From Escherichia phage Ecwhy_1, in the sequence record MH791411.1: 64,000 bases of DNA; one strand, written 5' to 3'. The position numbers and the translations under genes were made by a program. The first letter of the stretch is position 1. Every line of letters starts with the position of its first letter. The notes beneath the pieces were generated by a model, which was not told the origin of the DNA, searched no databases, and saw only the letters and a list, made by a program, of their open reading frames with translations. Positions 33,165-52,956 of the stretch are shown here, piece after piece.

Positions 33165-33409
33165 TTTGAATCTCCTAACTTTGTGGGCCGTCGCACCATT
33201 GCCGCCCTACGAGATACATTATTGCAGTACTGATATACTTTGTCAATACTTTTTTATTAATAGTTTTAGTTCCACCAGCAGATAGTTACTCACCGTTATT
33301 AACTATATATTTTGGATACACTTATGCACCCTGTGGGCTAGTTTTTGTCTATGCGTATATAATAGCAAAGGGACTGACCTGAGTCAATCCCTTTTTTTAT
33401 TCTTTTTTG

Positions 33410-33610
33410 TTAGATGATTCTCCAATCATCAACGATCATGGTAAGATACCGAACCAGTGATTCGAGTGATTCGTGTTCTCGATAGTCTGACGCACCGCCA
33501 GCGGTACAAGTACAGCCGATTAAGCCGTTTTGCAATTCCTTAATCTGTACATCGATAAGGTTGGCTTTAGCTTCTTTCAGTACTTCAACCAGGGCGATAG
33601 CGATAGACAT
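33410..33610 (-). CDS. hypothetical small protein
   Basis: 66-aa ORF, cassette upstream. Confidence 0.45.
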   Translation of the reverse strand: MSIAIALVEVLKEAKANLIDVQIKELQNGLIGCTCTAGGASDYREHESLESLVRYLTMIVDDWRII

Positions 33611-33700
33611 AATGTTTTACTCCAAACTATTGGCGGGAGAACTATTCCCCCGCTCTATGTAAAACATTATACATTACTGGTTAGTACTGTCAAATAGTTT

Positions 33701-33958
33701 TTATGAAATATCTTCGATGTAGTCGGCCCATTTCATTTTTTCAGTACTGTCAATGGCTACCGGATTATTTGGATCAAACCATTCACCATTACCGCAATAC
33801 ATACCAACGGCTACGGTTTTATAGCCATCCTGGGCCGTACACCACGACATTGCACGATAGATATGGCCTTTAACTGGTTGTAGTACTGGTAACGTTTTAT
33901 GGTCTTCTACGTAGGCCATCGCTTGATGATTTACCCGATATTGTGTGAACTGTTCCAT
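33701..33958 (-). CDS. hypothetical protein
   Basis: 85-aa ORF, cassette upstream. Confidence 0.45.
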   Translation of the reverse strand: MEQFTQYRVNHQAMAYVEDHKTLPVLQPVKGHIYRAMSWCTAQDGYKTVAVGMYCGNGEWFDPNNPVAIDSTEKMKWADYIEDIS

Positions 33959-34034
33959 TATGTTTCCCCTTGTAGTTAGTAAAGTTATTACATCAGTACT
34001 ATCAAGCTATGTCAATAGTACTGAAATAAAACTT

Positions 34035-34259
34035 TTAGATTAGATTATTGAGGCCGTCAATGGTAGACTCACTTTCTTCTTTCTCCCATTGTCGGTAGTA
34101 CTTCCATGCTTCATGATAGGTGGCGATTAGTTCATCTTTTTGATCCTGGTTACATGCCAGTACTGAATCACGGTGAGCGGTGTTATAGATAGAATCGAAT
34201 GATTTCTTCTCTTCTGCCAGGTTAGCTACTTCCCGCATCAGTTCATCAAAGTTAGCCAT
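34035..34259 (-). CDS. hypothetical small protein
   Basis: 74-aa ORF; AAAGGAG SD 7 nt before ATG; promoter plus hairpin upstream. Confidence 0.5.
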   Translation of the reverse strand: MANFDELMREVANLAEEKKSFDSIYNTAHRDSVLACNQDQKDELIATYHEAWKYYRQWEKEESESTIDGLNNLI

Positions 34260-34326
34260 TTTATTACTCCTTTTAGTGGGGGAGGATATCTCCCCCTATG
34301 CAAAACATTATACTTTGTTTTAGTTA

Positions 34327-34590
34327 TTATGCAAGTACTTTTTTCATATAAACATTAAATTCTACACCGCCGTAACCTTCCACGATGATATGTTTTGCGT
34401 TATCACGTTTGCACATAGTGAAACCATCGTTTACGTGTTTTGCATTTTCCAGGGCGACATCACCGATAGCGGCACATACGGCACTAATAACAGTATTCCG
34501 CAAAGTACTGGTATCATTGGCGGTCATAGTAGTTTGCAGTACTACGTTGTCGTATACGTGTGCATTGATAGTGATTTCGATAGTGTTCAT
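34327..34590 (-). CDS. hypothetical protein
   Basis: trimmed to MNTIEITINAHV; track N-terminus MFYIERGKWF is translated leader. Confidence 0.45.
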   Translation of the reverse strand: MNTIEITINAHVYDNVVLQTTMTANDTSTLRNTVISAVCAAIGDVALENAKHVNDGFTMCKRDNAKHIIVEGYGGVEFNVYMKKVLA

Positions 34591-34677
34591 GGTGTATCTC
34601 CTGGACTTGAGGGGAAACCATTTCCCCCTCTCGATATAAAACATTATACGTTAATCTAACTACAATGCAAGTACTTT

Positions 34678-34869
34678 TTAAATTTTATTTCCGATATAGT
34701 CCGGCATGTTCTTTTCAGTCATACGCTTTGCTAATGTCTGCATATGGCTTATAGCGTTCAAGGTGTCTTCCTCCAGGGATGAATCGAGATAATCAGGATC
34801 ATTCTTCACCTTGCAATGATTATGATAGCGTAGTACTGCCAGTACTTTTTTAACTTCTTCTACTGTCAT
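34678..34869 (-). CDS. hypothetical small protein
   Basis: 63-aa ORF coupled to upstream gene. Confidence 0.4.
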   Translation of the reverse strand: MTVEEVKKVLAVLRYHNHCKVKNDPDYLDSSLEEDTLNAISHMQTLAKRMTEKNMPDYIGNKI

Positions 34870-35138
34870 AATAAGTACCCCACTTCGTTAGCTTTCAGGT
34901 TAGTATCAATCATCAGTGGATTTTTGTAGTTCACAAAACGAGTAGTTTTCTCGATAGCGAATCCCATATAATCCAGCTTACTAACAGTACATTCATTCTT
35001 AAAAACTTCTTTCGCTGCATCGATGGCTGATTGCATGGATAACCGACCATCTAAATTAATGTTTCCAAATGATCCACCAGCAGAAGTAGGATTACCGTTC
35101 ATATCTTTAATGATCATAGTAGCGGAGTAGCTGGACAT
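34866..35138 (-). CDS. hypothetical protein
   Basis: 90-aa ORF, cassette upstream. Confidence 0.45.
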   Translation of the reverse strand: MSSYSATMIIKDMNGNPTSAGGSFGNINLDGRLSMQSAIDAAKEVFKNECTVSKLDYMGFAIEKTTRFVNYKNPLMIDTNLKANEVGYLL

Positions 35139-35227
35139 AATTTTGTTTCCTTTTATTGGTGTGGGGAGAACTATTCTCCCCTTGATGTAAACTATTATAC
35201 AGTACTAAAATACTTTGTCAAATACTT

Positions 35228-35635
35228 TTATTCGCCCATATAGATTAGATTATCATCGCCTACATAGGGATCGCAAACGTTGATTTCTTCACAGTACTTC
35301 GTGAATACATCGCCATAGTGACCTAAACCACGATCCCAAAAACCAGTTCCGTGACCTTCGCGGGTAAGGAACAGATCATGACCAGCTTGCTCATAACCGT
35401 AATCAATAAACATACCGCGAACTACTTCCAGATCATTACCGTGTTTCTCAATGAAGCGAGAACATGCAATCACCGCCGCTTGACGTGCTTCATCAGATAA
35501 CTCATAATCTTCCAGGTAATCGCCGTTATCATTATGTACAGTACTGAATTGCATAGCTTCAATGTAAGCTACAACCATTGCAGCATGATTTTTATCGTTA
35601 GTGATGTTCCGAGCGAGATTAGTAGTAGTAGACAT
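35228..35635 (-). CDS. hypothetical protein
   Basis: 135-aa ORF; promoter (35688-35715), leader hairpin (35657-35675) and AAGGAA SD upstream. Confidence 0.55.
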   Translation of the reverse strand: MSTTTNLARNITNDKNHAAMVVAYIEAMQFSTVHNDNGDYLEDYELSDEARQAAVIACSRFIEKHGNDLEVVRGMFIDYGYEQAGHDLFLTREGHGTGFWDRGLGHYGDVFTKYCEEINVCDPYVGDDNLIYMGE

Positions 35636-35656
35636 GATTTTATTCCTTATTGTATT

Positions 35657-35675
35657 GGGGAGAACTATTCTCCCC
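35657..35675 (-). promoter_or_regulatory. 5' leader stem-loop GGGGAGAAtagTTCTCCCC (representative)
   Basis: perfect GC-rich palindrome between promoter and SD; same design upstream of most cassette genes. Confidence 0.6.
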
Positions 35676-35687
35676 TTGATGTAAACT

Positions 35688-35715
35688 ATTATACAGTACT
35701 GATATACTTTGTCAA
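35688..35715 (-). promoter_or_regulatory. sigma70-type promoter TTGACA-N16-TATAAT with CAGTACTG in spacer (representative)
   Basis: read on minus strand: TTGACAaagtatatcagtactgTATAAT. Confidence 0.65.
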
Positions 35716-35718
35716 TAC

Positions 35719-35940
35719 TTAATTACGTTTAAAATGATATGTGCCTTTATCATCCTGTACGCCCCATACTGATTTACCATCAACACCAGTGAAGCCGGAT
35801 TGTAATTCAATATGGAAACCATTATTATCAACTACAAAAACTTTTTTATTTTCATCCCGATAACATTGATATTCTGAATCAACATTAAAGGCCGCATCAT
35901 TCAGACGATTGGAAGCGTAAATGCAAGTCATTGTAGTCAT
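35719..35940 (-). CDS. hypothetical small protein
   Basis: trimmed to MTTMTCIYAS after leader. Confidence 0.4.
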   Translation of the reverse strand: MTTMTCIYASNRLNDAAFNVDSEYQCYRDENKKVFVVDNNGFHIELQSGFTGVDGKSVWGVQDDKGTYHFKRN

Positions 35941-36164
35941 GATTTTATTCCTTAATATACCAGGGAGAACCATTCCCCCTCTCGATATAAAACATTATAC
36001 TTGATTCTAAGTACAATGCAAGTACTTTTTTAAAAATAGTTTTCAGTACTGAATACTTATATAATAGATACACTTCCGCACCCTATGGGTCAGTGAGTTA
36101 TCTCTCAATGGATATATAATAGCAAAGGGACTGACCGGAGTCAATCCCTTTTTTTAATCTTTTT

Positions 36165-36749
36165 TTATCGTGTTACCTTACTTGCTGCCACATCACGCTT
36201 TTTATAGTACTGATTCCAGATATTGCTGGTTAAACCGTAATCAAGTACTTTAATAAGTCCATTACGATCCTGGCCGATATTCTGTTTTCTGATATCTCTT
36301 ATCGTTAGTGTTGATAATGTATCATCAACGTGTTGTAGTGCATCAGCAAAGCGGTGCTGGCGTTCGATTGCATTACGTTTAATATTGTACTTTAATTCAT
36401 TGCACGCGTTTACGTGCTTCACACTGCCTTTGCTTGCAGTACTCAACCGATCCATAACGATAAACATATTATCAGGATCGCATAAATGCATATGCACCTT
36501 TGCAAAGTACTGTTTCAATTGAGGGCGGTCATAGTCTAAAAAATTCCATACCTTACATTCAGTTTCATTTTGTTCTACACCCGCATCACAATTCGCGACC
36601 TTAATCACTAACCGATCATTTAAAGCGAAAACTATACGGGAAGAACCAGCACCGATGATCTCCAGGCCAGCTAACCGACAAGCTGAAAGGATCTCTTTGT
36701 TGGTTTCCATTTCTGACAGTGTACGGATGAATTTAGTATAATTACGCAT
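36165..36749 (-). CDS. protein-kinase-like protein (putative Ser/Thr kinase)
   Basis: G-loop IGAGSSRIVF, VIKV lysine, catalytic-loop-like IRDIRKQN, DFG-like LDYG; trimmed to ATG after AAGGAG SD. Confidence 0.55.
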   Translation of the reverse strand: MRNYTKFIRTLSEMETNKEILSACRLAGLEIIGAGSSRIVFALNDRLVIKVANCDAGVEQNETECKVWNFLDYDRPQLKQYFAKVHMHLCDPDNMFIVMDRLSTASKGSVKHVNACNELKYNIKRNAIERQHRFADALQHVDDTLSTLTIRDIRKQNIGQDRNGLIKVLDYGLTSNIWNQYYKKRDVAASKVTR

Positions 36750-36780
36750 TGCATGTTCTCCTTGAGTTAATGAAACTATA

Positions 36781-37023
36781 TTACAGTACTTTACTATCAA
36801 TGGCAACTACTTTTTTAACATTAACGGCGTGGATCACTTCCTTCGTGTTTTTAGTACTGAATACTTTCGCCGCTCCTTGTTCGACCGTGATACGATAGCG
36901 ACCATTAACATCAACCATATTAATAAAGTCCGGCGTGCTGAATGGTGTTGTTTTACATTTGAGTACTGTTAACAGTTCCACCAGCGATGTAGTTTCTTTG
37001 ATACGTTTTTCTAAAGTAATCAT
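36781..37023 (-). CDS. hypothetical protein
   Basis: trimmed to MITLEKRIKE; track N-terminus is translated leader. Confidence 0.45.
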   Translation of the reverse strand: MITLEKRIKETTSLVELLTVLKCKTTPFSTPDFINMVDVNGRYRITVEQGAAKVFSTKNTKEVIHAVNVKKVVAIDSKVL

Positions 37024-37080
37024 TTTGTTTCCCCCGTGTTGGTATGTACATATAGTACTAAAACATTTGAGTACTGTCAA

Positions 37081-37299
37081 TTAGATAATATTATATTTCT
37101 TAAAATAAAATGCGTCCTGTGTTGGTTGATACTCGATACCGTTACCGTTATTGACTTCAACTAATAAACCTTTGTCAATTAGTTTTTTAATAGTACGATA
37201 CCCTTGTTGAAAATTGGTAAAATGTGAATCATTACGAAAGGTATAACCGTGCTTAACTGCTTCATCAATAGTTTTCTTTTCGATTTTAGATAATTTCAT
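37081..37299 (-). CDS. hypothetical protein
   Basis: trimmed to MKLSKIEKK; same leader as previous gene. Confidence 0.45.
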   Translation of the reverse strand: MKLSKIEKKTIDEAVKHGYTFRNDSHFTNFQQGYRTIKKLIDKGLLVEVNNGNGIEYQPTQDAFYFKKYNII

Positions 37300-37352
37300 T
37301 TTGTTTCTCCCGTGTTGGTATGTGTACATAGTACTAAAACAATTGAGTACTG

Positions 37353-37607
37353 TCAACGTGATATTAGTTTTATTTTCTTATTGTATTGTTGATGCTCATA
37401 AAGGTTTATCTTTCCTGTGTTCTCGATTACTATCCTGTTGTTAGTGTCCACGTCGATTACACGCAGTTTCCCGTTGCTTAACTTCCTAGGTAATAGGTTA
37501 CCATTAATAAACTCATTAGCAAGCTGTACGGCCTTTGTGATGATTCTCTGAGGTGCTTTATAGTGTACCCGTAAGATGTTATCTTTATATAGTTGAACCT
37601 TAATCAT
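37353..37607 (-). CDS. hypothetical protein
   Basis: 84-aa ORF. Confidence 0.4.
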   Translation of the reverse strand: MIKVQLYKDNILRVHYKAPQRIITKAVQLANEFINGNLLPRKLSNGKLRVIDVDTNNRIVIENTGKINLYEHQQYNKKIKLISR

Positions 37608-37625
37608 TTTGTTTGTCCTATAAAA

Positions 37626-37648
37626 AAGGCGGGAACTGATCCCGCCGT
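37626..37648 (-). terminator. rho-independent terminator
   Basis: minus-strand hairpin GGCGGGAtcagtTCCCGCC followed by T-run. Confidence 0.6.
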
Positions 37649-37668
37649 GTTGTTAGTACTGCAAGTTA

Positions 37669-38073
37669 TTAGATAACCTGGCGGCGTTTACTGTATACTG
37701 TTACACGATTACCCTTACGATCATGTCGGATCTCTTTCTGGTTGCGAATCAGTTCACTTGGACGCTTAAGGTTTGCCAGGTGATCCGCGTGAGTCCATGC
37801 GGTGTGGTTTACCTGTACTTTGATATCAGAATCAGCGATAAACTCATCTTGTGCGTCAAGTATTGCCGCCAGCATATCCGCTCGTTTTAGTTCTGCTGCT
37901 GTCAGTACTGGCTCAGGTGAATTCACAATATCAGAGATTTCTTTGAACTGTACGGCCCAGCGTTGACCTTTCGTTGCATCTTTGCCCATGTCTTTAAATG
38001 CTGCTCCTTCCTCGCGTGCAACAATACGGGCAGCTTCACGGGTAGCGTAGAATTTAGTAATCATGGTATACAT
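37669..38073 (-). CDS. hypothetical protein (paralog of 51079..51342)
   Basis: shared KFYATREAARI ... FKDMG ... RWA ... DRKGNRVTVY; start may be M4. Confidence 0.55.
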   Translation of the reverse strand: MYTMITKFYATREAARIVAREEGAAFKDMGKDATKGQRWAVQFKEISDIVNSPEPVLTAAELKRADMLAAILDAQDEFIADSDIKVQVNHTAWTHADHLANLKRPSELIRNQKEIRHDRKGNRVTVYSKRRQVI

Positions 38074-38159
38074 CCTATTAGTTGAGTTAGTACTACAAGT
38101 TAGAGTCTATTATAAAGTACTATCTGGGCAATGTCAAATAGTACTTTAAATGGATTCTA

Positions 38160-38483
38160 TTACATGTCTTTCTTACGTTTTACATCGTGGTAGCGAACTG
38201 TTATTTCTTTGTTGATCTCTTCCTCGATGCGATGAATAACTTTTTCTTTCGGGTTGAAACCTATAACGGTTTCTTTAATGATCTCCAAGCCCGTGTATTC
38301 GCCTTGTGTACCGTAACCGTATGTAAAGGTTTCGTGTCCCAGGTCTTCCCAGCGGTCGCCAATTAACGCAGACACGTAGCAAGAGTGGTAAGTATTGCCG
38401 TGTGAATCAGTCCACCGATTAACGTTAATGTCAAAGGAGGTTACAATTTTCAATTCTACTTTCTGGGCAAGGATCATAGCCAT
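38160..38483 (-). CDS. hypothetical protein (paralog of 45003..45326)
   Basis: shared RWTDSxGNTYHSC ... FTYGY ... VKRKKD. Confidence 0.55.
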   Translation of the reverse strand: MAMILAQKVELKIVTSFDINVNRWTDSHGNTYHSCYVSALIGDRWEDLGHETFTYGYGTQGEYTGLEIIKETVIGFNPKEKVIHRIEEEINKEITVRYHDVKRKKDM

Positions 38484-38570
38484 TTTTATTTCTCTCTCTT
38501 TGTTAGGAGGGGAACCATTCCCCTCGCTTGATGTAAACTATTATACAGTACTAAGATACTTTGTCAATAC

Positions 38571-38753
38571 TTATTTTTTGGAAAGTTTACGCATTAATTC
38601 TACGCTTTCTTGTGAACGTTTTGCTACCTGGCAAGCTGTATGGGCAGTAAACATTTTTGTATAGTCTGACGCTTTGCCACCGAACCGAGCGGCACGTTCA
38701 CGGGCACTTGGAACTAATACTATTTCTTTATTACAGATAGTGCACTTAGCCAT
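38571..38753 (-). CDS. small Cys-rich protein (possible zinc ribbon)
   Basis: trimmed to MAKCTICNK; CxxC ... HTAC spacing. Confidence 0.4.
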   Translation of the reverse strand: MAKCTICNKEIVLVPSARERAARFGGKASDYTKMFTAHTACQVAKRSQESVELMRKLSKK

Positions 38754-38841
38754 TTTTATTTCTCTCTCTTTGTTAGGAGGGGAACCGTTTCCCCTCACTT
38801 GATGTAAACTATTATACAGTACTAAGATACTTTGTCAATAC

Positions 38842-39117
38842 TTAAGTATTGTAAATGTCGTGAATAGTGATAAAGTTTTTACGACCGTAAACATGTAAAT
38901 CAGTATCAATGTAGTGCTTATCAAGTACATCCTCGACGCTTAAAGACGTGTCGTGAATATCTTCATAAAATTGTGGATCAACAATCGTGCTTAAGTCATC
39001 TGGCGTTAACTTATCGTTAAGGCATTGAACCGCCTGGATATCTGCTTCACGTTTCCATTGTTCCAGATTAGTAGTCAGTACTTGCTCGATTTCGTTAGCT
39101 GTAAGTAAAGTCCGCAT
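38842..39117 (-). CDS. hypothetical protein
   Basis: 91-aa ORF preceded by duplicated tandem-promoter leader. Confidence 0.45.
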   Translation of the reverse strand: MRTLLTANEIEQVLTTNLEQWKREADIQAVQCLNDKLTPDDLSTIVDPQFYEDIHDTSLSVEDVLDKHYIDTDLHVYGRKNFITIHDIYNT

Positions 39118-39578
39118 TTTAATGTTTCCTTATCAGTGGTTGATGTAAGTATTATACTCGTTTACTTTCTATTGTCAAACTATTTTATCAGGGGAGTTTT
39201 TCGTATGTCTTACTCCTGGACTACTTAACGGGGTTACTTATTTCGTTCCCCGTCCTGATGTAAAACATTATACTTGATTCTAAGTACAATGCAAGTACTT
39301 TTTTAAAAATAGTTTTCAGTACTAGCCACCAGCAAACAATAGATACATTTATGCACCCTGTGGGCTAATTTGTTTCTATGCGTATATAATAGCAAAGGGA
39401 CTGACCGGAGTCAATCCCTTTTTCAAATATTTTTAAACTTCTTTCGGGTTGCGATATGTGATAGCGTTCGGGTACATTTGTTTAATGTTATTCCATGCCT
39501 GGTTAACATTATAACCACTTGATCGAATCAGTTGGTTATTACCGACACCTTGAAACACTACTTCAAATAAGAATTCTT

Positions 39579-39752
39579 TCATGCTTTCACCTCTCGATCT
39601 GCTTTGCCTTTACGCCAGGCCGTTGCTAATTGTTCGCGTTGCCATAAGTCGAGTGATACGTAAAGTTTTGCATTATCACCCTTCGGATATTCGCCAGTAG
39701 TACCAATCCGATAAAACAGATCTTTCAGTACTGTTAATTCTACCTGGACCAT
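39579..39752 (-). CDS. hypothetical small protein
   Basis: trimmed to MVQVELTVLK. Confidence 0.4.
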   Translation of the reverse strand: MVQVELTVLKDLFYRIGTTGEYPKGDNAKLYVSLDLWQREQLATAWRKGKADREVKA

Positions 39753-39839
39753 TATACTTTCCTCTTTGTTAGGAGGGGAACTATTCCCCTTCCGATATAA
39801 AACATTATACACTTTATTCAGTACTGTGCAAGTACTTTT

Positions 39840-40052: not shown

Positions 40053-40135
40053 TTTTCTTTCCTCTTAGTGGGGAGAATCATTTCTCCCCTTCATGTAAAC
40101 TATTATACAGTACTGGATTGCATTGTCAATAGTTT

Positions 40136-44323: not shown

Positions 44324-44328
44324 ATTAA

Positions 44329-46165: not shown

Positions 46166-46406
46166 TGTTTTGATTCCTTTGATTTGGAAGGAGAACCGTT
46201 TCCCCCTCTCGATGTAAAACATTATACGCTAATCTCTTAATCGTGCAAGTACTTTTTATTACTTTTTGCAAAATACTTTAAACGCTCTCAATCGCGTTCT
46301 TACAGCCTTAACGCCACCAGCTAGGGCAATGCATCAGATAATCAGTTTAATGCGTTAGAATCGTTTCTAGGCGGTGCTGGTGGCATGGTAAACGATAAAC
46401 ACAAAA

Positions 46407-46430
46407 AAGCCCACCGTTTAAGGTGGGCTA
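46407..46430 (-). terminator. rho-independent terminator
   Basis: GCCCACC ... GGTGGGC hairpin followed by T6 on minus strand. Confidence 0.65.
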
Positions 46431-46450
46431 GTGATTCAGTACTTTAATTG

Positions 46451-46933
46451 TTATGCTTCAACTTTGCGATGAGATTCGATCCATTCCTCGCGAGTCATAC
46501 CGCTGGCGTTAATCGCGTCCAGTACTACCGCAATGCAGTTACCACGCACCGGAATCAGATATTCTTCCCCGTTGTCCAGTACTACCGCTACGCGTTCCTG
46601 AATCCATTTTTTGGCTTTTACTTCTGGCTTGTCTTCCCCATACTTAACCGCCAGGGCTTTTTGTGCCATCTCTGTAACTACTTCCAGATCCAATCCAACT
46701 ACTGCCGCCTGAATACTTTCGATTGTTGCTTGTAGTTCTGCTTCACGGGCCGCCTTTGCCGCTTCAATTTCTGCCGCTTTATTTGCTTGTAGTTCTTTCG
46801 CAGTACTGTACGCGATGTTAAAATTATTGCGTACCGCTTTCATGGTATCGTTATCCAGTTCAGCCAGGATCTCAGCCGCGACGTTAGTTTCATTTGCTAC
46901 CAGTGCTTTGATGAATGATTTTACATTAGCCAT
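46451..46933 (-). CDS. hypothetical protein with Ala/Glu-rich helical segment
   Basis: trimmed to MANVKSFIK; terminator directly downstream. Confidence 0.5.
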   Translation of the reverse strand: MANVKSFIKALVANETNVAAEILAELDNDTMKAVRNNFNIAYSTAKELQANKAAEIEAAKAAREAELQATIESIQAAVVGLDLEVVTEMAQKALAVKYGEDKPEVKAKKWIQERVAVVLDNGEEYLIPVRGNCIAVVLDAINASGMTREEWIESHRKVEA

Positions 46934-47142
46934 TTTATAAATCCTCAATTAAAGTTTAGTTTACGTTTATTAGTGTATCAAAGTTTTCTCGACGTGTCCA
47001 GTTTTTCGTTCGACTTACTGGCGGTCTACTTAGTGCTCCCCGTCTTGATGTAATACATTCTACGCTTTTCTGCGGTAATGTCAACTACTTTCTTAAAACT
47101 ATTTTCAAAGTATCTCAGTACTACGATACTACAAAAACAAAA

Positions 47143-47160
47143 AAGCCCACCAGGTGGGCT
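47143..47160 (-). terminator. rho-independent terminator
   Basis: GCCCACC/GGTGGGC hairpin plus T-run on minus strand. Confidence 0.6.
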
Positions 47161-47166
47161 ATGTAC

Positions 47167-47397
47167 TTAATCAGTGAGTAAAATATTAAACACTTTACCA
47201 TTTAACGTTATTGGTGCACTGCTACCAGGCACAAGATCCGTTAGTATACCTGCAATCGCTTTATCATTGGCTACCTTTCCAGTGTCCAACAGTACTACAG
47301 TACTGATAAGATTAACGCTCGTTTCAATATCATAATGCACGGCGTTAAGTAGTTGTGTAGTACTGCTTTCGTTAAGTAAAACAATTCGCTTAGTCAT
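47167..47397 (-). CDS. hypothetical small protein
   Basis: 76-aa ORF with terminator downstream. Confidence 0.45.
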   Translation of the reverse strand: MTKRIVLLNESSTTQLLNAVHYDIETSVNLISTVVLLDTGKVANDKAIAGILTDLVPGSSAPITLNGKVFNILLTD

Positions 47398-47418
47398 GAT
47401 GTTACCCCGTAGTATCTA

Positions 47419-47718
47419 TCAACGGCAATTAATAACGCCGGTATGAGTTACTTTCTCGGTATCCATTACAGTGACCGAACCGCGTTTAGCACTGGCATCA
47501 TAATAAATTGTCGTGCTACCGTTTTCGTCTTCTTCATGGAACGGGCCGTTTTTAAATGCTTCCGGCTGGATCTCTAAATCCTTTAATACAATCTCGCCAG
47601 TTCTTTCATCGGTCATTGCAACAGTGCACTGAATGAATTTTTCACTACTTACATCTAATGACGCATTAACAGCGAAAGAGGAAACAGATAAAGCCAGGGC
47701 GATGATTGCAATTTTCAT
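47419..47718 (-). CDS. secreted/periplasmic small protein (signal peptide)
   Basis: N-terminus MKIAIIALALSVSSFAVNA: charged-hydrophobic-AxA pattern. Confidence 0.5.
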   Translation of the reverse strand: MKIAIIALALSVSSFAVNASLDVSSEKFIQCTVAMTDERTGEIVLKDLEIQPEAFKNGPFHEEDENGSTTIYYDASAKRGSVTVMDTEKVTHTGVINCR

Positions 47719-47802
47719 TTGATTATCCTTAGTTACCAGGGGAAACCGTTTCCCCTTGCGATGTAAAATATTATACAGTACTAAAAACTAATTGCAAGTA
47801 CT

Positions 47803-48039
47803 TTATGATTTTTTATAAAACATTTCAGCAGTGATATTTTTACCCGTTGGCTGTACTTTATCCAGAATTTTTTGATGCCCTGGTCGTCCAAAGGAATATG
47901 ATCCGTAAACAGTAAACCAGTAGTTACCCTCAGTGTTTACATGTACAGCACAATAAGGAACACCACGCGATTCATCACTAGTAAAGTGTGATACCGTTCC
48001 CGTTACATTCGCAGACGTTGATTTGATTTGTTCGACCAT
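47803..48039 (-). CDS. hypothetical small protein
   Basis: 78-aa ORF, cassette upstream. Confidence 0.45.
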   Translation of the reverse strand: MVEQIKSTSANVTGTVSHFTSDESRGVPYCAVHVNTEGNYWFTVYGSYSFGRPGHQKILDKVQPTGKNITAEMFYKKS

Positions 48040-48147
48040 TTTCTTATTCCTTAGTTACCAGGGGAACCGCTCCCCCTATGCAAAACATTATACGCGTTTA
48101 AAAACTAATTGCAAGTATTTTAATAAAAAGTATTTGAAAAATAGTTG

Positions 48148-48290
48148 TTGACAAGTGCATCCAGTACTGGCATAATTACTACATCAAGACGAAACAGTCA
48201 CTAACCCACCGGGTGCCGAGATCCGTCTATTAAATGATTCAGTACTGAAAAAGTAACGGGGAGTTATTATCTCCCCGTGTTGTTATTTTG
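48148..48290 (+). ncRNA. candidate small RNA / orphan plus-strand transcription unit
   Basis: TTGACA-N17-CATAAT promoter (48148-48176), no ORF, ends at bidirectional terminator hairpin CGGGGAGttattatCTCCCCG plus T-run. Confidence 0.3.
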
Positions 48291-48504
48291 TAAGGTATAA
48301 ACAGAAGTCGCCTTTATTTGCTACGCCGCCAGTGTAACGCGAGGAATAGTTAGAAACGTCCTGGACTTCTGCTATTACCAGGGTATCATCATTCAATTCG
48401 TCGCAGAAGCAAACGGCTGGATCTTGTACGCCGATTTTGTCGGCATGTTCCCGCATAGATTTAACCAGTGCTTCCAGTTGGGAAAGAGTAGTGATATTAG
48501 CCAT
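48283..48504 (-). CDS. hypothetical small protein
   Basis: trimmed to MANITTLSQL. Confidence 0.45.
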   Translation of the reverse strand: MANITTLSQLEALVKSMREHADKIGVQDPAVCFCDELNDDTLVIAEVQDVSNYSSRYTGGVANKGDFCLYLTK

Positions 48505-48588
48505 TTTATTTTCCTCATTACCAGGGAGAACCATTTCTCCCTTTGATGTAAACCATTATACAGTACTGAAAACTAATTGCAAGTACTT

Positions 48589-48777
48589 TTAATTAAATTC
48601 CATAAAATCATTTTCAACGTGCACAACAATCTGATTATTTTTAAAGGACGCAGAAAACTCTATACAATCATAAACCGCTTTTTCTGTTACCAGACTATGA
48701 GCACCAATCGGATTAATTGGGGATTGAATTGTTTCAATCTCGTTACCTTGTTCATTAACGATTAAAATATTAAACAT
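48589..48777 (-). CDS. hypothetical small protein
   Basis: 62-aa ORF, ATG verified. Confidence 0.45.
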   Translation of the reverse strand: MFNILIVNEQGNEIETIQSPINPIGAHSLVTEKAVYDCIEFSASFKNNQIVVHVENDFMEFN

Positions 48778-48816
48778 TGCCGTTACTCCTGGATAGTGTT
48801 AACTCGATATAAAGTA

Positions 48817-48999
48817 TTATACGCCTTTATTGCTTAGTGTCCAGTGATCACGCATCATACGCCCCGCACGATCCCAGCTAGTAGGCATGGGTATGCCTTG
48901 CAATTCGTTAGGGGAGATCTCGACCTCGATCCCTACATCAATAACAGTCATTCCAGCTTTCGCAGCTTGCTCGCGGATAACCTCAGATAATGTTGTCAT
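48817..48999 (-). CDS. hypothetical small protein
   Basis: 60-aa ORF. Confidence 0.4.
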   Translation of the reverse strand: MTTLSEVIREQAAKAGMTVIDVGIEVEISPNELQGIPMPTSWDRAGRMMRDHWTLSNKGV

Positions 49000-49073
49000 G
49001 ATTAAAGCTCCTGGATAGTGTTAACTCGATATAAAGTATTATACAGTACTGAAAACTAATTGCAAGTACTTTT

Positions 49074-49334
49074 TTAATATTGTTTGTCGTCGTCTTCCTC
49101 GATGAATTGACCGACGAAATGATCTACTTTCGCTTTGAGGCTTTTATAATCTTCTTCTACTTCCGTTAAACGTTCCTGGTAGTATTCCAATGCTTCAAGA
49201 TACGCCGCCTCAGCAGTTTTTGCACGCATAGCTAAATTCATTCCACGCGTTTCATCAAATAGCCAATAACCATCGGTGCACTGGCTAATAGATAATGACT
49301 TGCTTAGTACTGTATAGCTAATTACTTTACTCAT
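49074..49334 (-). CDS. hypothetical protein
   Basis: 86-aa ORF with terminator-like hairpin downstream. Confidence 0.45.
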   Translation of the reverse strand: MSKVISYTVLSKSLSISQCTDGYWLFDETRGMNLAMRAKTAEAAYLEALEYYQERLTEVEEDYKSLKAKVDHFVGQFIEEDDDKQY

Positions 49335-49391
49335 TAGATAACCCTCAGTAAAGGCGGGAACTATTACCCGCCATTATCTCAGTACTGAATA

Positions 49392-49631
49392 TTACATTCC
49401 AACCATTGCAGCACGGATCGCAGTAGTGCTATACTTAAAGCCGTCCGGCGTTGTAGTAGTACCGTTGGCTTTTAATCTGCGGTACATACATTCCGCAGCA
49501 ATATCTTTAGTTCTACTTTGTGCGATGCAACTTTGAGCAAGCCGATACAATGACTCACCGTTATTAATCCAAAGGCTTACATTCCAATGAGTTTTGTTTT
49601 TGTGTCCGTTGTAAGTTTTAGTACTAGCCAT
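49392..49631 (-). CDS. hypothetical protein (paralog of 51432..51671)
   Basis: shared GHKNKTHWNVSLWINN ... TPDGFKYSTTAIRAAMVGM. Confidence 0.55.
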   Translation of the reverse strand: MASTKTYNGHKNKTHWNVSLWINNGESLYRLAQSCIAQSRTKDIAAECMYRRLKANGTTTTPDGFKYSTTAIRAAMVGM

Positions 49632-49721
49632 TTTTAAATCCTCGTTTGAGCGGGGAACCACTCCCCGCCTCGATATAAAGTATTATACGCTTTTAAACTT
49701 AGTTTGCAAGTACTTTTTAAA

Positions 49722-50333
49722 TTAATATTCGATTGATTCCACTACGCCATCAATAACATTGAATTGATACTCGTTACCCTCAATCAGTGCCGTAATGTTT
49801 TCAGTAGTGAATTGATCCTCATATGCATTCTCTAAATCACGGTACAACTTGCGGGACAATTCACGAATAGTTTCAGTGAGTAGTTCCTCAAGCTCATTAA
49901 CTAACGTTTCTTGTTTTGCGGTTAAATCAGTGTAAGCCGATTCAATGTACCCGCTTACAGTATTCTCATGCGAGTAGTGGGAGTGCGAACGTTTTACACT
50001 CATCGCCAAATCATCTTCATTCAGCAAGTGACGGATTGAGCGATACTTAGTTAATGCTCTTACCTTGCGTAAAAACTTCACTGCGTCAACGTGGTCAGTA
50101 CTGATTGATGCACCGTCACCCTGGGACCAAAAACCACTGAATTGTATTTCAGCGTCATTAATGCCATATTCCGGTAGTACTGTTTCTTTATAGTATTCAA
50201 TTTCACTTTCAGAAAAATAATTGTCGTTTGAGTTTTTTTCACGTTCCCGAACCAGTTCGATAGCTGACGTTTGTTGTTCTGCGTTCAATTCAGAAAAAGC
50301 CATAACATAAGTAGTAGTAGTGATAGTTTTCAT
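49722..50333 (-). CDS. hypothetical protein
   Basis: 203-aa ORF; FSGFWSQGDGASI motif of unknown affiliation; tandem promoters upstream. Confidence 0.5.
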   Translation of the reverse strand: MKTITTTTYVMAFSELNAEQQTSAIELVREREKNSNDNYFSESEIEYYKETVLPEYGINDAEIQFSGFWSQGDGASISTDHVDAVKFLRKVRALTKYRSIRHLLNEDDLAMSVKRSHSHYSHENTVSGYIESAYTDLTAKQETLVNELEELLTETIRELSRKLYRDLENAYEDQFTTENITALIEGNEYQFNVIDGVVESIEY

Positions 50334-50557
50334 TTTGTAACCCTCATTCAGTAGTTGATGTAAGTATTATACGCTTTTAAAAACATTTGTCAAACTATTT
50401 TATCAGGGGAGTTTTTCGTGTGCCTTACTCCTGGGCTACTTAACGGGAAGTTACTTATTTCGTTCCCCGTCCTGATGTAAAACATTATACGCCTTTAAAC
50501 ATAGTTTGCAAGTACTTTTTAAAAATAGTTTTCAGTACTGAATAGTAAAAAAAAGTA

Positions 50558-50586
50558 TTGACAGCATTATCAAGTACTGGTATAAT
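50558..50586 (+). promoter_or_regulatory. orphan sigma70-type promoter TTGACA-N17-TATAAT
   Basis: plus strand, no ORF downstream; faces minus-strand promoter at 50702-50730. Confidence 0.5.
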
Positions 50587-50701
50587 ATACCCCATGACAA
50601 CAGCTAACCCACCGGGTGCACAATTGTAACTATACTAAACTAATTTTTCTATAGATACACTCCCGCACCCTATGGGCTACGGCTTATCTGCCAATGAATA
50701 C

Positions 50702-50730
50702 ATTATGCCAGTACTGACAAAATAAGTCAA
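50702..50730 (-). promoter_or_regulatory. sigma70-type promoter TTGACT-N17-CATAAT (convergent partner)
   Basis: read on minus strand; leader contains AGCCCATAGGGTGC. Confidence 0.5.
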
Positions 50731-50760
50731 TACCGGCAATTGTAAAGATTTGTAAACTGC

Positions 50761-50997
50761 TTATACTGCAATCGCGTCCAGGCTATAATAATAATAAGTG
50801 CCGTATTGGTGTACTTTATTACCTTTTATTTCAGTACTGAATGAATCCGAACGGTTTGCATATGATGTTAATTTAAAGTACTTTGATTTGCTGATACGTT
50901 GCCATACACCACAGATCCGCTGTAAGTAAGTAGTTTTATTCGTGGTAGTATCTTTTACGGTTTTAACTTCAGTCATATACATATTAGTCATTTTCAT
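50761..50997 (-). CDS. hypothetical small protein
   Basis: 78-aa ORF. Confidence 0.4.
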   Translation of the reverse strand: MKMTNMYMTEVKTVKDTTTNKTTYLQRICGVWQRISKSKYFKLTSYANRSDSFSTEIKGNKVHQYGTYYYYSLDAIAV

Positions 50998-51078
50998 TAC
51001 TCCAGGTTATAGGCGGGAAGAGTTCCCGCTCTCGATGTAAAACATTATACGCCATTAAACATAGTTTGCAAGTACTTT

Positions 51079-51342
51079 TTATTCAAGTACTGCAATCTTT
51101 TTAGTACGGTACACGGTCACGCGGTTGCCCTTTCGGTCGAGCTTTATTTCTACCACTCGACGCGATACACTATCGGGACTTTTTAAGGCCGCTAACCAGT
51201 ACTGTAATGATCTGGCGGTACTACGCTTTACAATGGCCCAACGTTTACCACGTTCCGATTGTACGCCCATATCTTTAAACGTTGCCCCGTCCTGGCGTGC
51301 GGCGATCCGAGCTTGTTCACGCGTCGCAAAATACTTAATTTT
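51079..51342 (-). CDS. hypothetical protein (paralog of 37669..38073)
   Basis: trimmed to MKIKYFATREQ; shared motifs with 37669..38073. Confidence 0.5.
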   Translation of the reverse strand, partial: KIKYFATREQARIAARQDGATFKDMGVQSERGKRWAIVKRSTARSLQYWLAALKSPDSVSRRVVEIKLDRKGNRVTVYRTKKIAVLE

Positions 51343-51431
51343 CATGCTGTTGCCCTTATCGTTGGTGTATGAATAAAACACTATTATAAAGTACTATCGC
51401 AAAAAAATGATAGTACTTTAAATAAATTCTA

Positions 51432-51671
51432 TTACATTCCAACCATCGCCGCACGGATCGCAGTAGTGCTATATTTGAATCCGTCCGGTGTTTTATCTTG
51501 TCCAGTCTGTTCTAAAAATAACATCATATGACGGGCCGCATCATTGCGATTAGTGCTATCGTTAATAAAGTCCTGGGCCAACCGATACAATCCCTCATCG
51601 TTATTAATCCAAAGGCTTACATTCCAATGAGTTTTGTTTTTGTGACCTAAGAACATTTTTGATTTAGCCAT
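51432..51671 (-). CDS. hypothetical protein (paralog of 49392..49631)
   Basis: trimmed to MAKSKMF; C-terminus identical to paralog. Confidence 0.55.
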   Translation of the reverse strand: MAKSKMFLGHKNKTHWNVSLWINNDEGLYRLAQDFINDSTNRNDAARHMMLFLEQTGQDKTPDGFKYSTTAIRAAMVGM

Positions 51672-51764
51672 TTTTTTAATCCTCTTATATAGTGGGGAAC
51701 TATTCCCCACCTGATGTAAAACATTATACGCCATTAAACATAGTTTGCAAGTACTTTATTAAAC

Positions 51765-52127
51765 TTATTTGTAAATTTTGCCACTGTCAGCCCATACCAG
51801 GAAACGAGGCATATTATCCCATGCATCTTGTTTTAAGTTTAAGCCGTGCAATTCCTCAGTTGTTGCCATCCCTGGTACTGGCTTACTACACACCGCGAAA
51901 TTTTCGCCCATATACTGATAAACCATCGTCAAATCATTTGAGATCATTATATGGATCATTGAATCCAGCATCAAAGTAGCGGCGTATTGTTCACGCTTAA
52001 GCGGCAACATTGCAATAAGTTCCCGATAAGCTGCAATGTGAATTTTTACAGTTTCAGCCGGAAGACCTTTCATCTCATCGCGGAAGTTTACCAGGTTAAG
52101 CATGATTTTATTGATTTGAGTCGCCAT
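51765..52127 (-). CDS. hypothetical protein
   Basis: trimmed to MATQINKIML. Confidence 0.45.
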   Translation of the reverse strand: MATQINKIMLNLVNFRDEMKGLPAETVKIHIAAYRELIAMLPLKREQYAATLMLDSMIHIMISNDLTMVYQYMGENFAVCSKPVPGMATTEELHGLNLKQDAWDNMPRFLVWADSGKIYK

Positions 52128-52490
52128 CGTTTTAATCTCTCTTAATGTGTAGCGGGAAGTGTTCCCGCTCTCGATGTAAAACATTATACGCTTTTATCAG
52201 TACGGTGCAAGTACTTTCTACAAATACTTTTAAAATAGTTTTCTTTCTATATAGGAGTACTATTATTCAGTACTGCAATCATCCAGGGGAACTATCTTTC
52301 TATATAGGAGTACTATTATTCAGTACTGAATCAATCCACTAAATCATCCCTATACCCCGTAAAACGTCCTCAGACGCATTCTAACGCATTAATACACATA
52401 AGCTATACATTTGCACCATTCCAATCATTCCAGGGCTTTACAGGCCGTTTAAACGCGTTAAATTATTTTCAATTATTTTGTTTTTAGGTA

Positions 52491-52518
52491 TTGACTTGAT
52501 CCTGAAAAAGCGTATAAT
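52491..52518 (+). promoter_or_regulatory. orphan sigma70-type promoter TTGACT-N16-TATAAT
   Basis: plus strand in ORF-poor region. Confidence 0.45.
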
Positions 52519-52716
52519 TACTACATAGACGCGAGAAAGCGGATACCCCAGGGGGTGGGAAGATCCGTCCAAAATTCAAGATATAAAAAAAGGATACACT
52601 CCCGCACCCTAGCAGGTAAACGCACTTTCTCAGTACTGAAATATAGTACCATAGTCCGGCCCAGGATAGCAAGCAAATTAATTAAAACTTTTTTGCTTCC
52701 AGGGTATTGCTTTATT

Positions 52717-52744
52717 TTTCCAGTACTGTATAATAGTTCCATCA
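52717..52744 (+). promoter_or_regulatory. orphan promoter (TTGCTT ... CAGTACTG-TATAAT)
   Basis: plus strand; leader contains AGCCCACCGGGTGC. Confidence 0.4.
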
Positions 52745-52956
52745 AGTCGAGAAAGACTCAAGCCCACCGGGTGCATAGTTACGCCCAAAATTCAGTACTG
52801 AAAAAATTTTTAAAAATATCCGGCCAGGCCGTTGACATTGCCCCCAGTTTATAAGATAATGATTCCAGATTCAGAAAAATCTAACACCAGATACTGCGGG
52901 GAAACTATCCCCACGCGGTAGGGGAACTATTGGAAAAAACAAAATAAAATTTTGAT

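What the first reader, a model, noticed from the sequence alone, without database searches (positions are those of the whole stretch)
33280..52800. Family of orphan and tandem promoters whose transcripts share a CCCAC(A/C)GGGUGC motif about 25 nt downstream
At least ten sites (minus strand about 33330, 36090, 39350, 41700, 43360, 50670; plus strand about 48205, 50610, 52548, 52765) combine a TTGAC(A/T)-N17-(T/C)ATAAT promoter with a leader containing (A/T)AGCCCACAGGGTGC or AACCCACCGGGTGC at a fixed distance, often preceded by ATCAAGACGAnAAC. Several plus-strand copies have no ORF downstream and run antisense to the gene train. The motif is a small imperfect palindrome, so it could be a regulator binding site positioned at +25 or a conserved RNA hairpin.
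Basis: seen in the sequence. Interest (0 to 1): 0.65.

Follow-up and report, generated by a model that had tools for sequence, protein, structure and literature searches.

The report
Multicopy early small-RNA module in jumbo phage
The repeated motif is real: it is the core of a previously undescribed, deeply conserved structured RNA that host RNA polymerase would make from about eleven strong promoters in the 21-kb terminal repeat of RaK2/121Q-type jumbo phages, sometimes as a stand-alone ~100-nt RNA gene, and its function is still unknown.

Summary
All ten reported sites exist, plus one degenerate copy. The 12-mer CCCAYMGGGTGC occurs 9 times at up to 1 mismatch, against 0.08 expected. Each copy lies 21-29 nt after an extended -10 sigma-70 promoter.

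The window is an Asteriusvirus-like E. coli jumbo phage. All copies lie inside the region equivalent to its ~21-kb direct terminal repeat.

A covariance model finds 93 copies in RaK2-like phages of Escherichia, Klebsiella, Cronobacter and Erwinia and in related IMG/VR jumbo contigs, one with the length reported for Yersinia phage fHe-Yen9-04. Bacterial genomes give only chance-level hits, and Rfam has no match.

The RNA starts at a conserved CAU and has three parts:
- a 4-bp 5' hairpin with strong compensatory covariation and a purine-rich loop;
- the invariant 12-mer;
- a G·U-rich second hairpin that can form only on the sense strand.

The 12-mer's own CCC/GGG mini-hairpin competes with that second hairpin.

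About one third of copies point against or away from genes. Five of the six solo copies examined are complete promoter-element-terminator units with no ORF.

Best reading, at moderate confidence: an abundant pre-early small RNA that acts as an RNA ligand in trans. Put-like antitermination and 5' stabilisation remain rivals. No experimental data exist.

The parts
31995..53864 (.). Region equivalent to the ~21-kb direct terminal repeat (DTR) of phage fEgEco12. It holds the early gene train on the minus strand, and every copy of the element lies inside it.
   Evidence: fEgEco12 bases 1-20910 align to window 31995-53864 at ~98% identity. The fEgEco12 DTR is 20,993 bp and was confirmed by restriction digests (PMC13070987). 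GC content is 38-41% here against 31-34% in the flanks.
33311..33394 (-). Copy 1. A class-A cassette: a terminator-like hairpin containing the -35 (33367-33394), a TATTAT -10, and the RNA element 33311-33354 (core 33326-33337).
36063..36151 (-). Copy 2, class-A cassette. RNA element 36063-36113, core 36078-36089.
39338..39421 (-). Copy 3, class-A cassette. RNA element 39338-39383, core 39353-39364.
41673..41756 (-). Copy 4. Class-B promoter (TTGACA-N7-CCAGTACTGG-CATAAT) at 41728-41756. RNA element 41673-41723, core 41688-41699. This copy is absent from the close relative G17.
43343..43431 (-). Copy 5, class-A cassette. RNA element 43343-43393, core 43358-43369.
48148..48290 (+). Copy 6. A stand-alone small-RNA gene: promoter 48148-48176, inferred start ~48183, element 48181-48231, CAGUACUG box 48240-48247, and a bidirectional intrinsic terminator at 48256-48278 followed by a U-rich tail. 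There is no ORF. It lies in the gap between two minus-strand genes.
50558..50634 (+). Copy 7. The antisense member of a convergent pair: promoter 50558-50586 (a 12/12 consensus match with TG), element 50589-50634 with a weakened HP1.
50650..50730 (-). Copy 8. The sense member of the convergent pair: promoter 50702-50730, element 50650-50699. The two core 5' ends are 68 nt apart.
52491..52573 (+). Copy 9. A diverged core (CCCAGGGGGTGG) with a compensating HP2 3' arm (CCGTCC). Promoter 52491-52518, element 52523-52573. It points towards the genome end.
52584..52660 (-). Copy 10, degenerate. It lacks the CCC. HP2 (AGGGTGCGGGAGTGTATCCT) is followed directly by T7, so it looks like an intrinsic terminator that would give a ~50-nt RNA. 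The promoter is weak (TTGCTA-18-TACTAT). It is convergent with copy 9 at 68-nt spacing.
   Evidence: not recovered by the covariance model at E<=1
52707..52789 (+). Copy 11. Promoter TTGCTT-16-TATAAT at 52707-52734 with CAGTACTG abutting the -10. Element 52739-52789. It is followed by a further plus-strand promoter (52832-52860) and points into the non-coding terminal region.

Best explanation
The unit is an RNA, not a DNA site. Host sigma-70 RNA polymerase would start at the A of a conserved CAU, 7 nt after an extended -10 promoter. The first ~46 nt of the transcript fold into three parts. (1) HP1 is a 4-bp hairpin that starts 2-5 nt from the 5' end and carries a 6-8-nt purine-rich loop ending in AA. 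(2) A short linker leads into the invariant CCCAYAGGGUG. (3) HP2 pairs GGGUG with a variable 3' arm (YRYCY) across an 8-nt loop. The invariant segment can instead fold on itself (R-CCC-AYA-GGG-U). That fold has about the same stability as HP2, so the RNA is probably bistable. About eleven copies sit in the terminal repeat, which is present at both genome ends in virion DNA. They would make this one of the most abundant transcripts at the very start of infection. Stand-alone copies end at an intrinsic terminator ~30 nt after HP2 and would give ~100-nt RNAs. Copies oriented with the genes sit upstream of those genes' own promoters and would carry the module as the 5' end of read-through transcripts. 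My best inference is that the module works in trans as an RNA ligand. On this reading the invariant 12-mer, held between two hairpins, binds and titrates or recruits a partner (a protein, or less likely an RNA) that is conserved across Enterobacterales hosts or across this phage clade, as part of host takeover. HP1 would also protect the 5' end. Shown here: the copies, their promoter association, the covariation, the strand specificity, the clade-wide conservation, the restriction to the terminal repeat, and the terminators of orphan copies. Inferred only: that the promoters fire, the RNA ends, action in trans, and the partner.
For: Non-random and promoter-linked. Conservation: 45 copies in the window, RaK2, GAP32 and Erwinia phage Hallingskeid, and 48 more in IMG/VR jumbo-phage contigs, one of them 354,378 bp long, the length listed for Yersinia phage fHe-Yen9-04. 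HP1: all 4 pairs show changes on both sides, in 74 and 58 cells, with 0/500 shuffles reaching this and 87-90% of cells paired against 34-57% when the partner is slid. HP2: the five inner pairs are 84-100% paired. They vary only as G·U to G-C or U-A to U-G, on the 3' arm, while the 5' arm is invariant. G·U is the commonest pair at three positions, so the fold exists only on the sense strand. Alternative mini-hairpin: 98% paired, R-U closing pair, one or two CCU...AGG double changes; dG is -3.9 kcal/mol against -2.8±3.1 for HP2. Independent genes: five of the six solo orphan copies examined are promoter-element-terminator units with no ORF, namely window 48148-48290, RaK2 +13001 and +20069, Hallingskeid -5044 and GAP32 +11016. 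Roughly one third of all copies are antisense to, or point away from, the gene train. Sense copies are followed by one or two further near-consensus promoters before the start codon, so the genes do not need this promoter. All copies fall inside the terminal-repeat equivalent, with none in the other ~42 kb of the window. The element is phage-specific: 596 Gb of bacterial genomes gave 45 scattered single hits, none listed from Enterobacterales; my estimate of the chance expectation is about 140.
Against: There is no transcript data for any phage of this group, so promoters, start sites and RNA ends are all inferred. Most sense copies have no terminator after HP2. A discrete small RNA from them would need processing, which I did not show. 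In convergent pairs the two transcripts would be complementary and could cancel each other. No partner has been identified: no complementary site exists elsewhere in the window or in the E. coli rRNA operon, and I could not search the host genome for targets. HP2 is supported only by one-sided changes. The alignments used for the pair counts were fitted to the model, which biases them towards the structure.
Confidence: 0.45

Rival explanations
1. A cis-acting RNA that modifies RNA polymerase, like HK022 put (or a nut/boxB-like site for a phage protein). The nascent two-hairpin RNA would stay bound to the polymerase that made it and make it resistant to pausing and termination across the early gene blocks.
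For: The layout resembles putL: a two-hairpin RNA starting within a few nucleotides of the 5' end of an early transcript, highly conserved in sequence and transcribed by host polymerase (PMC9378689). The sense copies head multi-gene blocks that begin right after a terminator hairpin. The HP1 loops (GAGAAA, GCGAAA, AGAACAA) recall the purine-rich boxB loops; that comparison rests on my own knowledge.
Against: One third of copies are not in front of any gene. Several are followed within 30 nt by a strong terminator and then only by antisense sequence, an arrangement that would be pointless or harmful for an antiterminator. Two copies have HP2 followed directly by a U-tract, so they would terminate themselves. 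Few intrinsic terminators lie inside the blocks, so antitermination seems unnecessary. The hairpins are 4-6 bp, unlike the long bulged put stems with a triplex. No boxA lies near the elements.
Confidence: 0.15
2. A cis-acting 5' leader for mRNA fate. HP1 at the 5' end would block RppH and RNase E entry, and the rest would be a processing or protein-binding signal that stabilises or times the downstream early mRNAs.
For: HP1 begins 2-5 nt from the inferred 5' end in every copy. The genes' own promoters in this region also give transcripts that start CAUC and run straight into a strong hairpin, so 5' hairpins are a general habit of these early transcripts. HP2 is followed by A/U-rich sequence of the type RNase E cuts; that point rests on my own knowledge.
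Against: It does not explain the invariant 12-mer kept across phage genera, the conserved HP1 loop, or the orphan copies that have nothing to stabilise. The genes also have closer promoters with their own 5' hairpins.
Confidence: 0.15
3. A transcription attenuator or RNA switch. The competing folds (CCC/GGG mini-hairpin against HP2) would be set by a ligand or protein and would decide whether transcription or processing continues.
For: The two folds are mutually exclusive and about equally stable. In window copy 10 and in GAP32 copy 6552 HP2 is followed by a U-tract, so it looks like a terminator.
Against: Most copies have no U-tract after HP2. HP2 is weak, at a mean of -2.8 kcal/mol. No aptamer-sized conserved domain is present, and Rfam gave no match.
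Confidence: 0.08
4. A DNA-level element. Either it is an operator for a regulator bound at about +20 of these promoters, or the repeats are simply homology for PeSL-type recombination and have no RNA function.
For: The core is invariant as DNA. The class-A copies fit the published description of promoter-terminator cassettes that mediate module shuffling in T4-type phages (PMC2839356, PMC4122927). Some alignment breakpoints between relatives fall at these promoters, for example window ~41761. One copy is missing in G17.
Against: The compensatory changes in HP1, and the G·U-only, strand-specific pairing of HP2, are not expected for a duplex-DNA site or for neutral recombination homology. The core is not a true palindrome.
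Confidence: 0.07

Closest known systems
PeSL cassettes (promoter-early stem-loop) of T4-type phages (Arbiol et al. 2010, PMC2839356; Comeau et al. 2014, PMC4122927)
   Same: Both are dispersed, repeated intergenic cassettes in a region of small orphan early genes. Both have a near-consensus sigma-70 promoter. In the four class-A copies a terminator-like hairpin overlaps the -35. Copy number varies between close relatives.
   Different: PeSLs end in a Shine-Dalgarno sequence and the start codon of the next gene, and no conserved transcribed RNA has been described for them. Here the conserved, covarying part is the transcript itself. Other promoters lie between it and the gene, a third of copies have no gene at all, and class-B copies lack the stem-loop.
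HK022 put RNAs (putL, putR)
   Same: Both are RNA elements of two hairpins made by host polymerase at the very start of an early phage transcript, and both are strongly conserved in sequence.
   Different: Put RNAs are ~70 nt with long bulged stems and a triplex, occur twice per genome, and always head an operon. This element is ~46 nt with 4-6-bp stems, occurs about 11 times per terminal repeat, and is often orphan or self-terminated. No antitermination has been shown.
Lambda nut sites (boxA plus boxB) and lambda OOP RNA
   Same: HP1 is a short hairpin with a purine-rich loop, which recalls boxB. The orphan copies recall OOP, a short RNA made from its own promoter and convergent with the 3' end of a neighbouring gene.
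   Different: There is no boxA. The loop is 6-8 nt on a 4-bp stem of variable sequence. Overlap with the neighbouring gene is limited to the shared terminator.
Uncharacterised non-coding RNAs in the terminal repeats of other large phages (PA5oct ncRNA001/002, PMC7318152; phage K sncRNAs, PMC9241854)
   Same: These are early or constitutively transcribed non-coding RNAs encoded in long terminal repeats, and their function is unknown.
   Different: They are single-copy and longer, and no conserved fold has been reported for them. The covariance model finds no copy of this element in the PA5oct ncRNA001 region.
Host-takeover modules in terminal redundancies (SPO1, T5 pre-early region; from my own knowledge)
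   Same: Both are long terminal repeats packed with strong host-type promoters, small genes and terminators that are expressed first.
   Different: No multicopy structured RNA is known in those modules.

Membership tests
PeSL promoter-terminator cassette | Strong sigma-70-like early promoter | tested here: met
   Nine of eleven copies have a consensus-scan match, with a 16-17 bp spacer and mostly a TG-extended -10. This is a sequence match only, with no activity data.
PeSL promoter-terminator cassette | Stem-loop able to terminate, placed within or next to the promoter | tested here: inconclusive
   Present in the 4 class-A copies, as a hairpin containing the -35. Absent in the class-B copies.
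PeSL promoter-terminator cassette | The cassette ends in the Shine-Dalgarno sequence and start codon of the adjacent ORFan | tested here: not met
   A ~46-nt conserved RNA and one or two more promoters lie between the cassette and the gene, or there is no gene at all.
PeSL promoter-terminator cassette | Mediates recombination or mini-circle formation | not testable with these tools
   The only hints are a breakpoint at ~41761 and one copy missing in G17.
HK022 put antiterminator RNA | ~70-nt RNA with two long bulged stem-loops, stem I forming a triplex | tested here: not met
   The element is ~46 nt with stems of 4 and 5-6 bp. The put description is taken from PMC9378689.
HK022 put antiterminator RNA | Lies in an early transcript, co-directional with the operon it serves | tested here: inconclusive
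   About two thirds of copies head gene blocks. One third are orphan, antisense or point away from genes.
HK022 put antiterminator RNA | Suppresses termination and depends on the beta-prime zinc-binding domain | not testable with these tools
   This needs in vitro transcription or genetics.
Lambda-type nut site | boxA sequence (CGCUCUUA / GCUCUUUAACAA) next to the hairpin | tested here: not met
   boxA-like matches are at chance level and none lies next to an element.
Lambda-type nut site | boxB: a 5-bp stem with a GNRA-like pentaloop | tested here: inconclusive
   HP1 has a 4-bp stem and a 6-8-nt purine-rich loop (GAGAAA, GCGAAA, AGAACAA).
Any Rfam 15 family (including tRNA, riboswitches, ribozymes, known sRNAs) | Covariance-model match | tested here: not met
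   No hit at gathering thresholds in the whole window. At E<=10 on the orphan gene, all hits but one fall on the terminator region; the exception is a sub-threshold L20-leader match spanning the whole gene (13.1 bits against a gathering score of 58.7). ARAGORN found no tRNA.
Hfq-type base-pairing sRNA | Own promoter, no ORF, an A/U-rich stretch, and a Rho-independent terminator with a U tail | tested here: met
   Met for the orphan copies only: window 48148-48290, RaK2 +13001 and +20069, Hallingskeid -5044.
Hfq-type base-pairing sRNA | Hfq binding and a complementary target | not testable with these tools
   No target was found in the window or in the rRNA operon. The host genome could not be scanned.

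The most novel reading that the evidence does not exclude
The module is a new class of phage RNA effector. It would be a protein-independent small RNA, transcribed from about 20 strong promoters in the two terminal repeats within the first minutes of infection. It would act either by capturing a conserved host machine (RNA polymerase, Rho, an RNase, or an RNA-guided or RNA-sensing defence protein) as a decoy, or by riding on the polymerase like put. Its two competing hairpins would serve as the switch.
Probability: 0.25. Interest if true: 0.85.

Novelty: new variant of a known kind. Interest (0 to 1): 0.62.

Why it matters
RaK2/121Q-type jumbo phages are being developed for therapy, yet more than 80% of their genes, and all of their regulation, are uncharacterised. 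This element is the most conserved non-coding feature found here in their terminal repeats. It is kept nearly invariant in all five named phage groups examined, whose hosts include Escherichia, Klebsiella, Cronobacter and Erwinia, while the surrounding small genes turn over. A multicopy RNA with a structure under selection, made before any phage protein exists, is a strong candidate for a first-minute host-takeover or anti-defence function. It also gives a defined handle for experiments: an RNA of ~46 nt, an invariant 12-mer, and two testable helices. It further extends the 'promoter-terminator cassette' picture of phage genome plasticity by showing that such cassettes can carry an RNA product of their own.

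Tried and rejected
- Rfam at gathering thresholds on the whole window, and at E<=10 on the orphan gene. There is no family match to the element. Nearly all weak hits fall on the terminator region.
- tRNA and tmRNA scan: none found.
- RNAalifold on the plain MAFFT alignment found only the CCC/GGG mini-hairpin, because HP1 was out of register. I solved this by building a covariance model from 13 in-register copies.
- Single-sequence minimum-free-energy folds were inconsistent between copies.
- boxA next to the elements: chance level.
- Similarity or complementarity of the core to the E. coli rrnB operon: chance level.
- Complementary target sites in the window: none apart from the partner copy in convergent pairs.
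- Host homologue: the bacterial genome scan gave only scattered hits at or below my estimate of the chance level.
- PA5oct ncRNA001, from a relative with RNA-seq data: no copy of the element.
- Small ORF or leader peptide. A GTG inside HP2 opens a 42-codon frame at one copy, but the start is not conserved in other copies. Rejected.
- Sigma-dependent pause element (YAGGGT as a -10-like hexamer). The A is lost in the CCCACCGGGTGC copies. Rejected.
- CsrA, OmrA/B or RNase P RNA resemblance. These rest only on short similarities recalled from memory and were not tested. I do not rely on them.
- Literature: eight full-text searches, including one for the motif sequence itself, found no description of this element. 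Reading the genome papers for RaK2, fEgEco12 and phAPEC6 found none either.

Full report
**What the window is.** Window 40000-48000 matches E. coli jumbo phages of the 121Q/PBECO4/G17/fEgEco12 group (Asteriusvirus) at 91-98% identity. Bases 1-20910 of fEgEco12 align to window 31995-53864. That phage has an experimentally confirmed 20,993-bp direct terminal repeat (PMC13070987). The finding's interval (33280-52800) is therefore essentially the terminal repeat. It is a train of small minus-strand genes of unknown function, has higher GC content than its flanks, and ends in about 1.7 kb of non-coding DNA that holds the physical genome end.

- CCCAYMGGGTGC occurs 9 times at up to 1 mismatch, against 0.08 expected.
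- The tenth reported site (52547, CCCAGGGGGTGG) is a diverged copy.
- An eleventh, degenerate copy lies on the minus strand at about 52584-52647.
- Nine copies have a promoter match in the scan directly upstream. I read the promoters of the other two from the sequence.
- There are two promoter designs. In class A the -35 (TTGACT) sits inside a 12-bp terminator-like hairpin and the -10 is TATTAT. In class B the palindrome CAGTACTG fills the spacer and supplies the TG of an extended -10.
- A conserved CAU lies 6-7 nt after the -10. I take its A as the transcription start, but this is inferred. The 12-mer then begins at +16 to +23.

**The structure.** Aligning 43 copies from four phage genera showed an invariant 12-mer and, upstream of it, a short hairpin whose stem sequence differs from copy to copy. 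Examples are GACG/CGUC, GCCA/UGGC, ACCG/CGGU, GGAG/CUCC, CCUG/CAGG and GUCA/UGAC. I built a covariance model from 13 in-register copies. It recovered 45 copies in the window, RaK2, GAP32 and Erwinia phage Hallingskeid, and 48 more in IMG/VR jumbo-phage contigs.

| Helix | Support |
|---|---|
| HP1 (upstream hairpin) | All four pairs change on both sides (74 and 58 cells; 0/500 shuffles reach this). 87-90% of cells are paired, against 34-57% when the partner is slid. |
| HP2 (GGGUG with a 3' arm 8 nt downstream) | The five inner pairs are 84-100% paired. They vary only as G·U to G-C or U-A to U-G, always on the 3' arm. The nominal closing C-G pair is poorly kept. |
| CCC-AYA-GGG mini-hairpin | Nearly invariant (98% paired), with an R-U closing pair and one or two CCU...AGG double changes. 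|

G·U is the commonest pair at three HP2 positions. The helix therefore cannot form on the complementary strand. That argues for an RNA, or at least a single sense strand, and against a duplex-DNA operator.

The mini-hairpin excludes HP2. Its stability is about the same: -3.9 kcal/mol against -2.8±3.1. The module is probably bistable.

The HP1 loop is purine-rich and ends in AA. The HP2 loop keeps an A at its third position and usually a U at its sixth.

**Distribution.**
- The element is absent from the roughly 42 kb of the window outside the terminal-repeat equivalent. In RaK2 all copies fall in a ~17-kb span of a 40-kb locus.
- fEgEco12 has 10 copies in one repeat and G17 has 9, lacking the 41699 copy.
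- A pattern scan of 596 Gb of bacterial genomes returned 45 scattered single hits, none listed from Enterobacterales. My estimate of the chance expectation is about 140.
- A scan of IMG/VR returned mostly contigs of 345-378 kb, plus four shorter contigs of 6-109 kb. Two of the shorter ones also scored as full-length copies with the model.
- Rfam has no match and there is no tRNA.
- Eight full-text searches, one of them for the motif sequence, found no description of the element. Reading the genome papers of this phage group found none either.

**Context, which bears on mechanism.**
- About one third of copies point against the gene train or away from genes.
- Five of the six solo orphan copies I examined are complete transcription units with no ORF. 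Each has a promoter, the element, an A/U-rich stretch with an AGUACUG box, and a terminator hairpin ~30 nt after HP2. They are window 48148-48290, RaK2 +13001 and +20069, Hallingskeid -5044 and GAP32 +11016. Hallingskeid -12257 has the hairpin but no U-tract on its own strand.
- Two copies have HP2 followed directly by a U-tract (window 52591-52610 and GAP32 6552), which predicts ~50-nt RNAs.
- Copies oriented with the genes are the most upstream promoter of a tandem set. One or two further near-consensus promoters, each giving a transcript with its own 5' hairpin, lie between the element and the start codon.
- Few intrinsic terminators lie inside the gene blocks. The blocks mostly end at the class-A hairpin of the next cassette.
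- Convergent pairs of elements recur. The two core 5' ends are exactly 68 nt apart in two window pairs and three GAP32 pairs. I cannot explain this.

**Mechanism.** The steps from promoter to folded 5' module follow from the sequence and the covariation, but no expression data exist. Three points favour an RNA product that acts on its own:
- complete promoter-element-terminator genes exist;
- one third of copies have a gene-independent orientation;
- the promoter is redundant for the downstream genes.

With about 22 copies per packaged genome and strong promoters, the RNA would be abundant in the first minutes of infection. The 12-mer is invariant across phages of different Enterobacterales hosts. 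That points to a conserved partner, which I could not identify. I put 0.45 on this reading.

The rivals are:
- A put-like or nut-like modifier of the transcribing polymerase (0.15). The 5' position and two-hairpin layout fit. The orphan and self-terminated copies, the scarcity of internal terminators, the short stems and the absence of boxA do not.
- A cis-acting 5' stabiliser or processing signal (0.15).
- A bistable attenuator (0.08).
- A purely DNA-level operator or recombination homology (0.07).

**Comparison with known systems.** The class-A copies look like the PeSL promoter-terminator cassettes of T4-type phages. The defining junction to a Shine-Dalgarno sequence and start codon is missing, and PeSLs have no conserved RNA product. 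It is not a put RNA by structure, not a nut site (no boxA), and not in Rfam. The nearest parallels in kind are the uncharacterised non-coding RNAs reported in the terminal repeats of PA5oct and phage K, but the covariance model finds no copy in the PA5oct ncRNA001 region. I therefore file it as a new variant: a promoter cassette that carries a new structured RNA family. It could turn out to be a new class of phage RNA effector.

**Limits.**
- All promoters, start sites and RNA ends are predictions.
- The alignments used for the pair counts were fitted to the model.
- HP2 rests on one-sided changes and the mini-hairpin on almost none.
- Host targets could not be searched.

Noticed in passing
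whole window, e.g. 33225, 35694, 40108, 41735, 48162, 48240, 52721, 53186-53963: The 8-bp palindrome CAGTACTG occurs 69 times, against 0.6 expected. It lies both in genes and between them. In most early promoters it abuts the -10 (TTGACA-N8-CAGTACTG-TATAAT). It also lies 8-15 nt downstream of many RNA elements and is dense in the non-coding terminal region. It could be a site for a phage DNA-binding protein or a promoter element.
   Followed up: partly
33367-33394, 36124-36151, 39394-39421, 43404-43431 (minus strand): A terminator-like 12-bp hairpin (AAAGGGATTGAC-TCCG-GTCAGTCCCTTT) contains the -35 hexamer of the next promoter. Compensatory changes are visible in the 43404 copy and in RaK2. 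This is a promoter-terminator cassette of the PeSL type. G17's annotators called the hairpins terminators.
   Followed up: partly
39185-39260 and 50400-50477 (minus strand): A second repeated non-coding leader (CATCAGGACGGGGAACGAAATAAGTAAC...) lies between the second and third tandem promoters. There are two copies in the window, identical over the 28-nt stretch searched. It folds at -21.7 kcal/mol (z = -2.5). It may be another structured early RNA.
   Followed up: partly
52200-54100: This is a non-coding terminal region. It has a tandem duplicate of ~53 bp (52237-52335) and iteron-like TAGCCGT / CCAGCCAT repeats (52960-53090). The physical left end of fEgEco12 maps to about 53864, and cumulative GC skew reaches its minimum at 54 kb. 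Two plus-strand elements and a further promoter (52832-52860) fire into this region. It could be the origin or packaging region.
   Followed up: no
window 50608/50676 and 52547/52615; L003 933/1001, 17214/17282, 20043/20111: Convergent pairs of elements have their core 5' ends exactly 68 nt apart, leaving a 21-nt gap between the two second hairpins. This holds in both Asteriusvirus and GAP32. Read-through would create a long inverted-repeat hairpin, up to a 24-bp stem in GAP32 17214/17282, which is a possible RNase III substrate. The purpose is unknown.
   Followed up: partly
46408-46429 and 47144-47160 (minus strand): Two intrinsic terminators have stems AGCCCACC/GGTGGGCT, which repeat the AGCCCACC string of the element core. 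This is probably coincidence, but base-pairing competition was not excluded.
   Followed up: no
31995-53864 versus the flanks: GC content is 38-41% inside the terminal-repeat equivalent and 31-34% outside it.
   Followed up: no
35990-36010, 43240-43265 and similar sites (minus strand): Transcripts from the genes' own promoters also start CAUC and run straight into a G/C-rich hairpin (GAGAGGGGGAA...UUCCCCUGG) just before the Shine-Dalgarno sequence. A 5'-terminal hairpin seems to be a general feature of early mRNAs in this phage.
   Followed up: no
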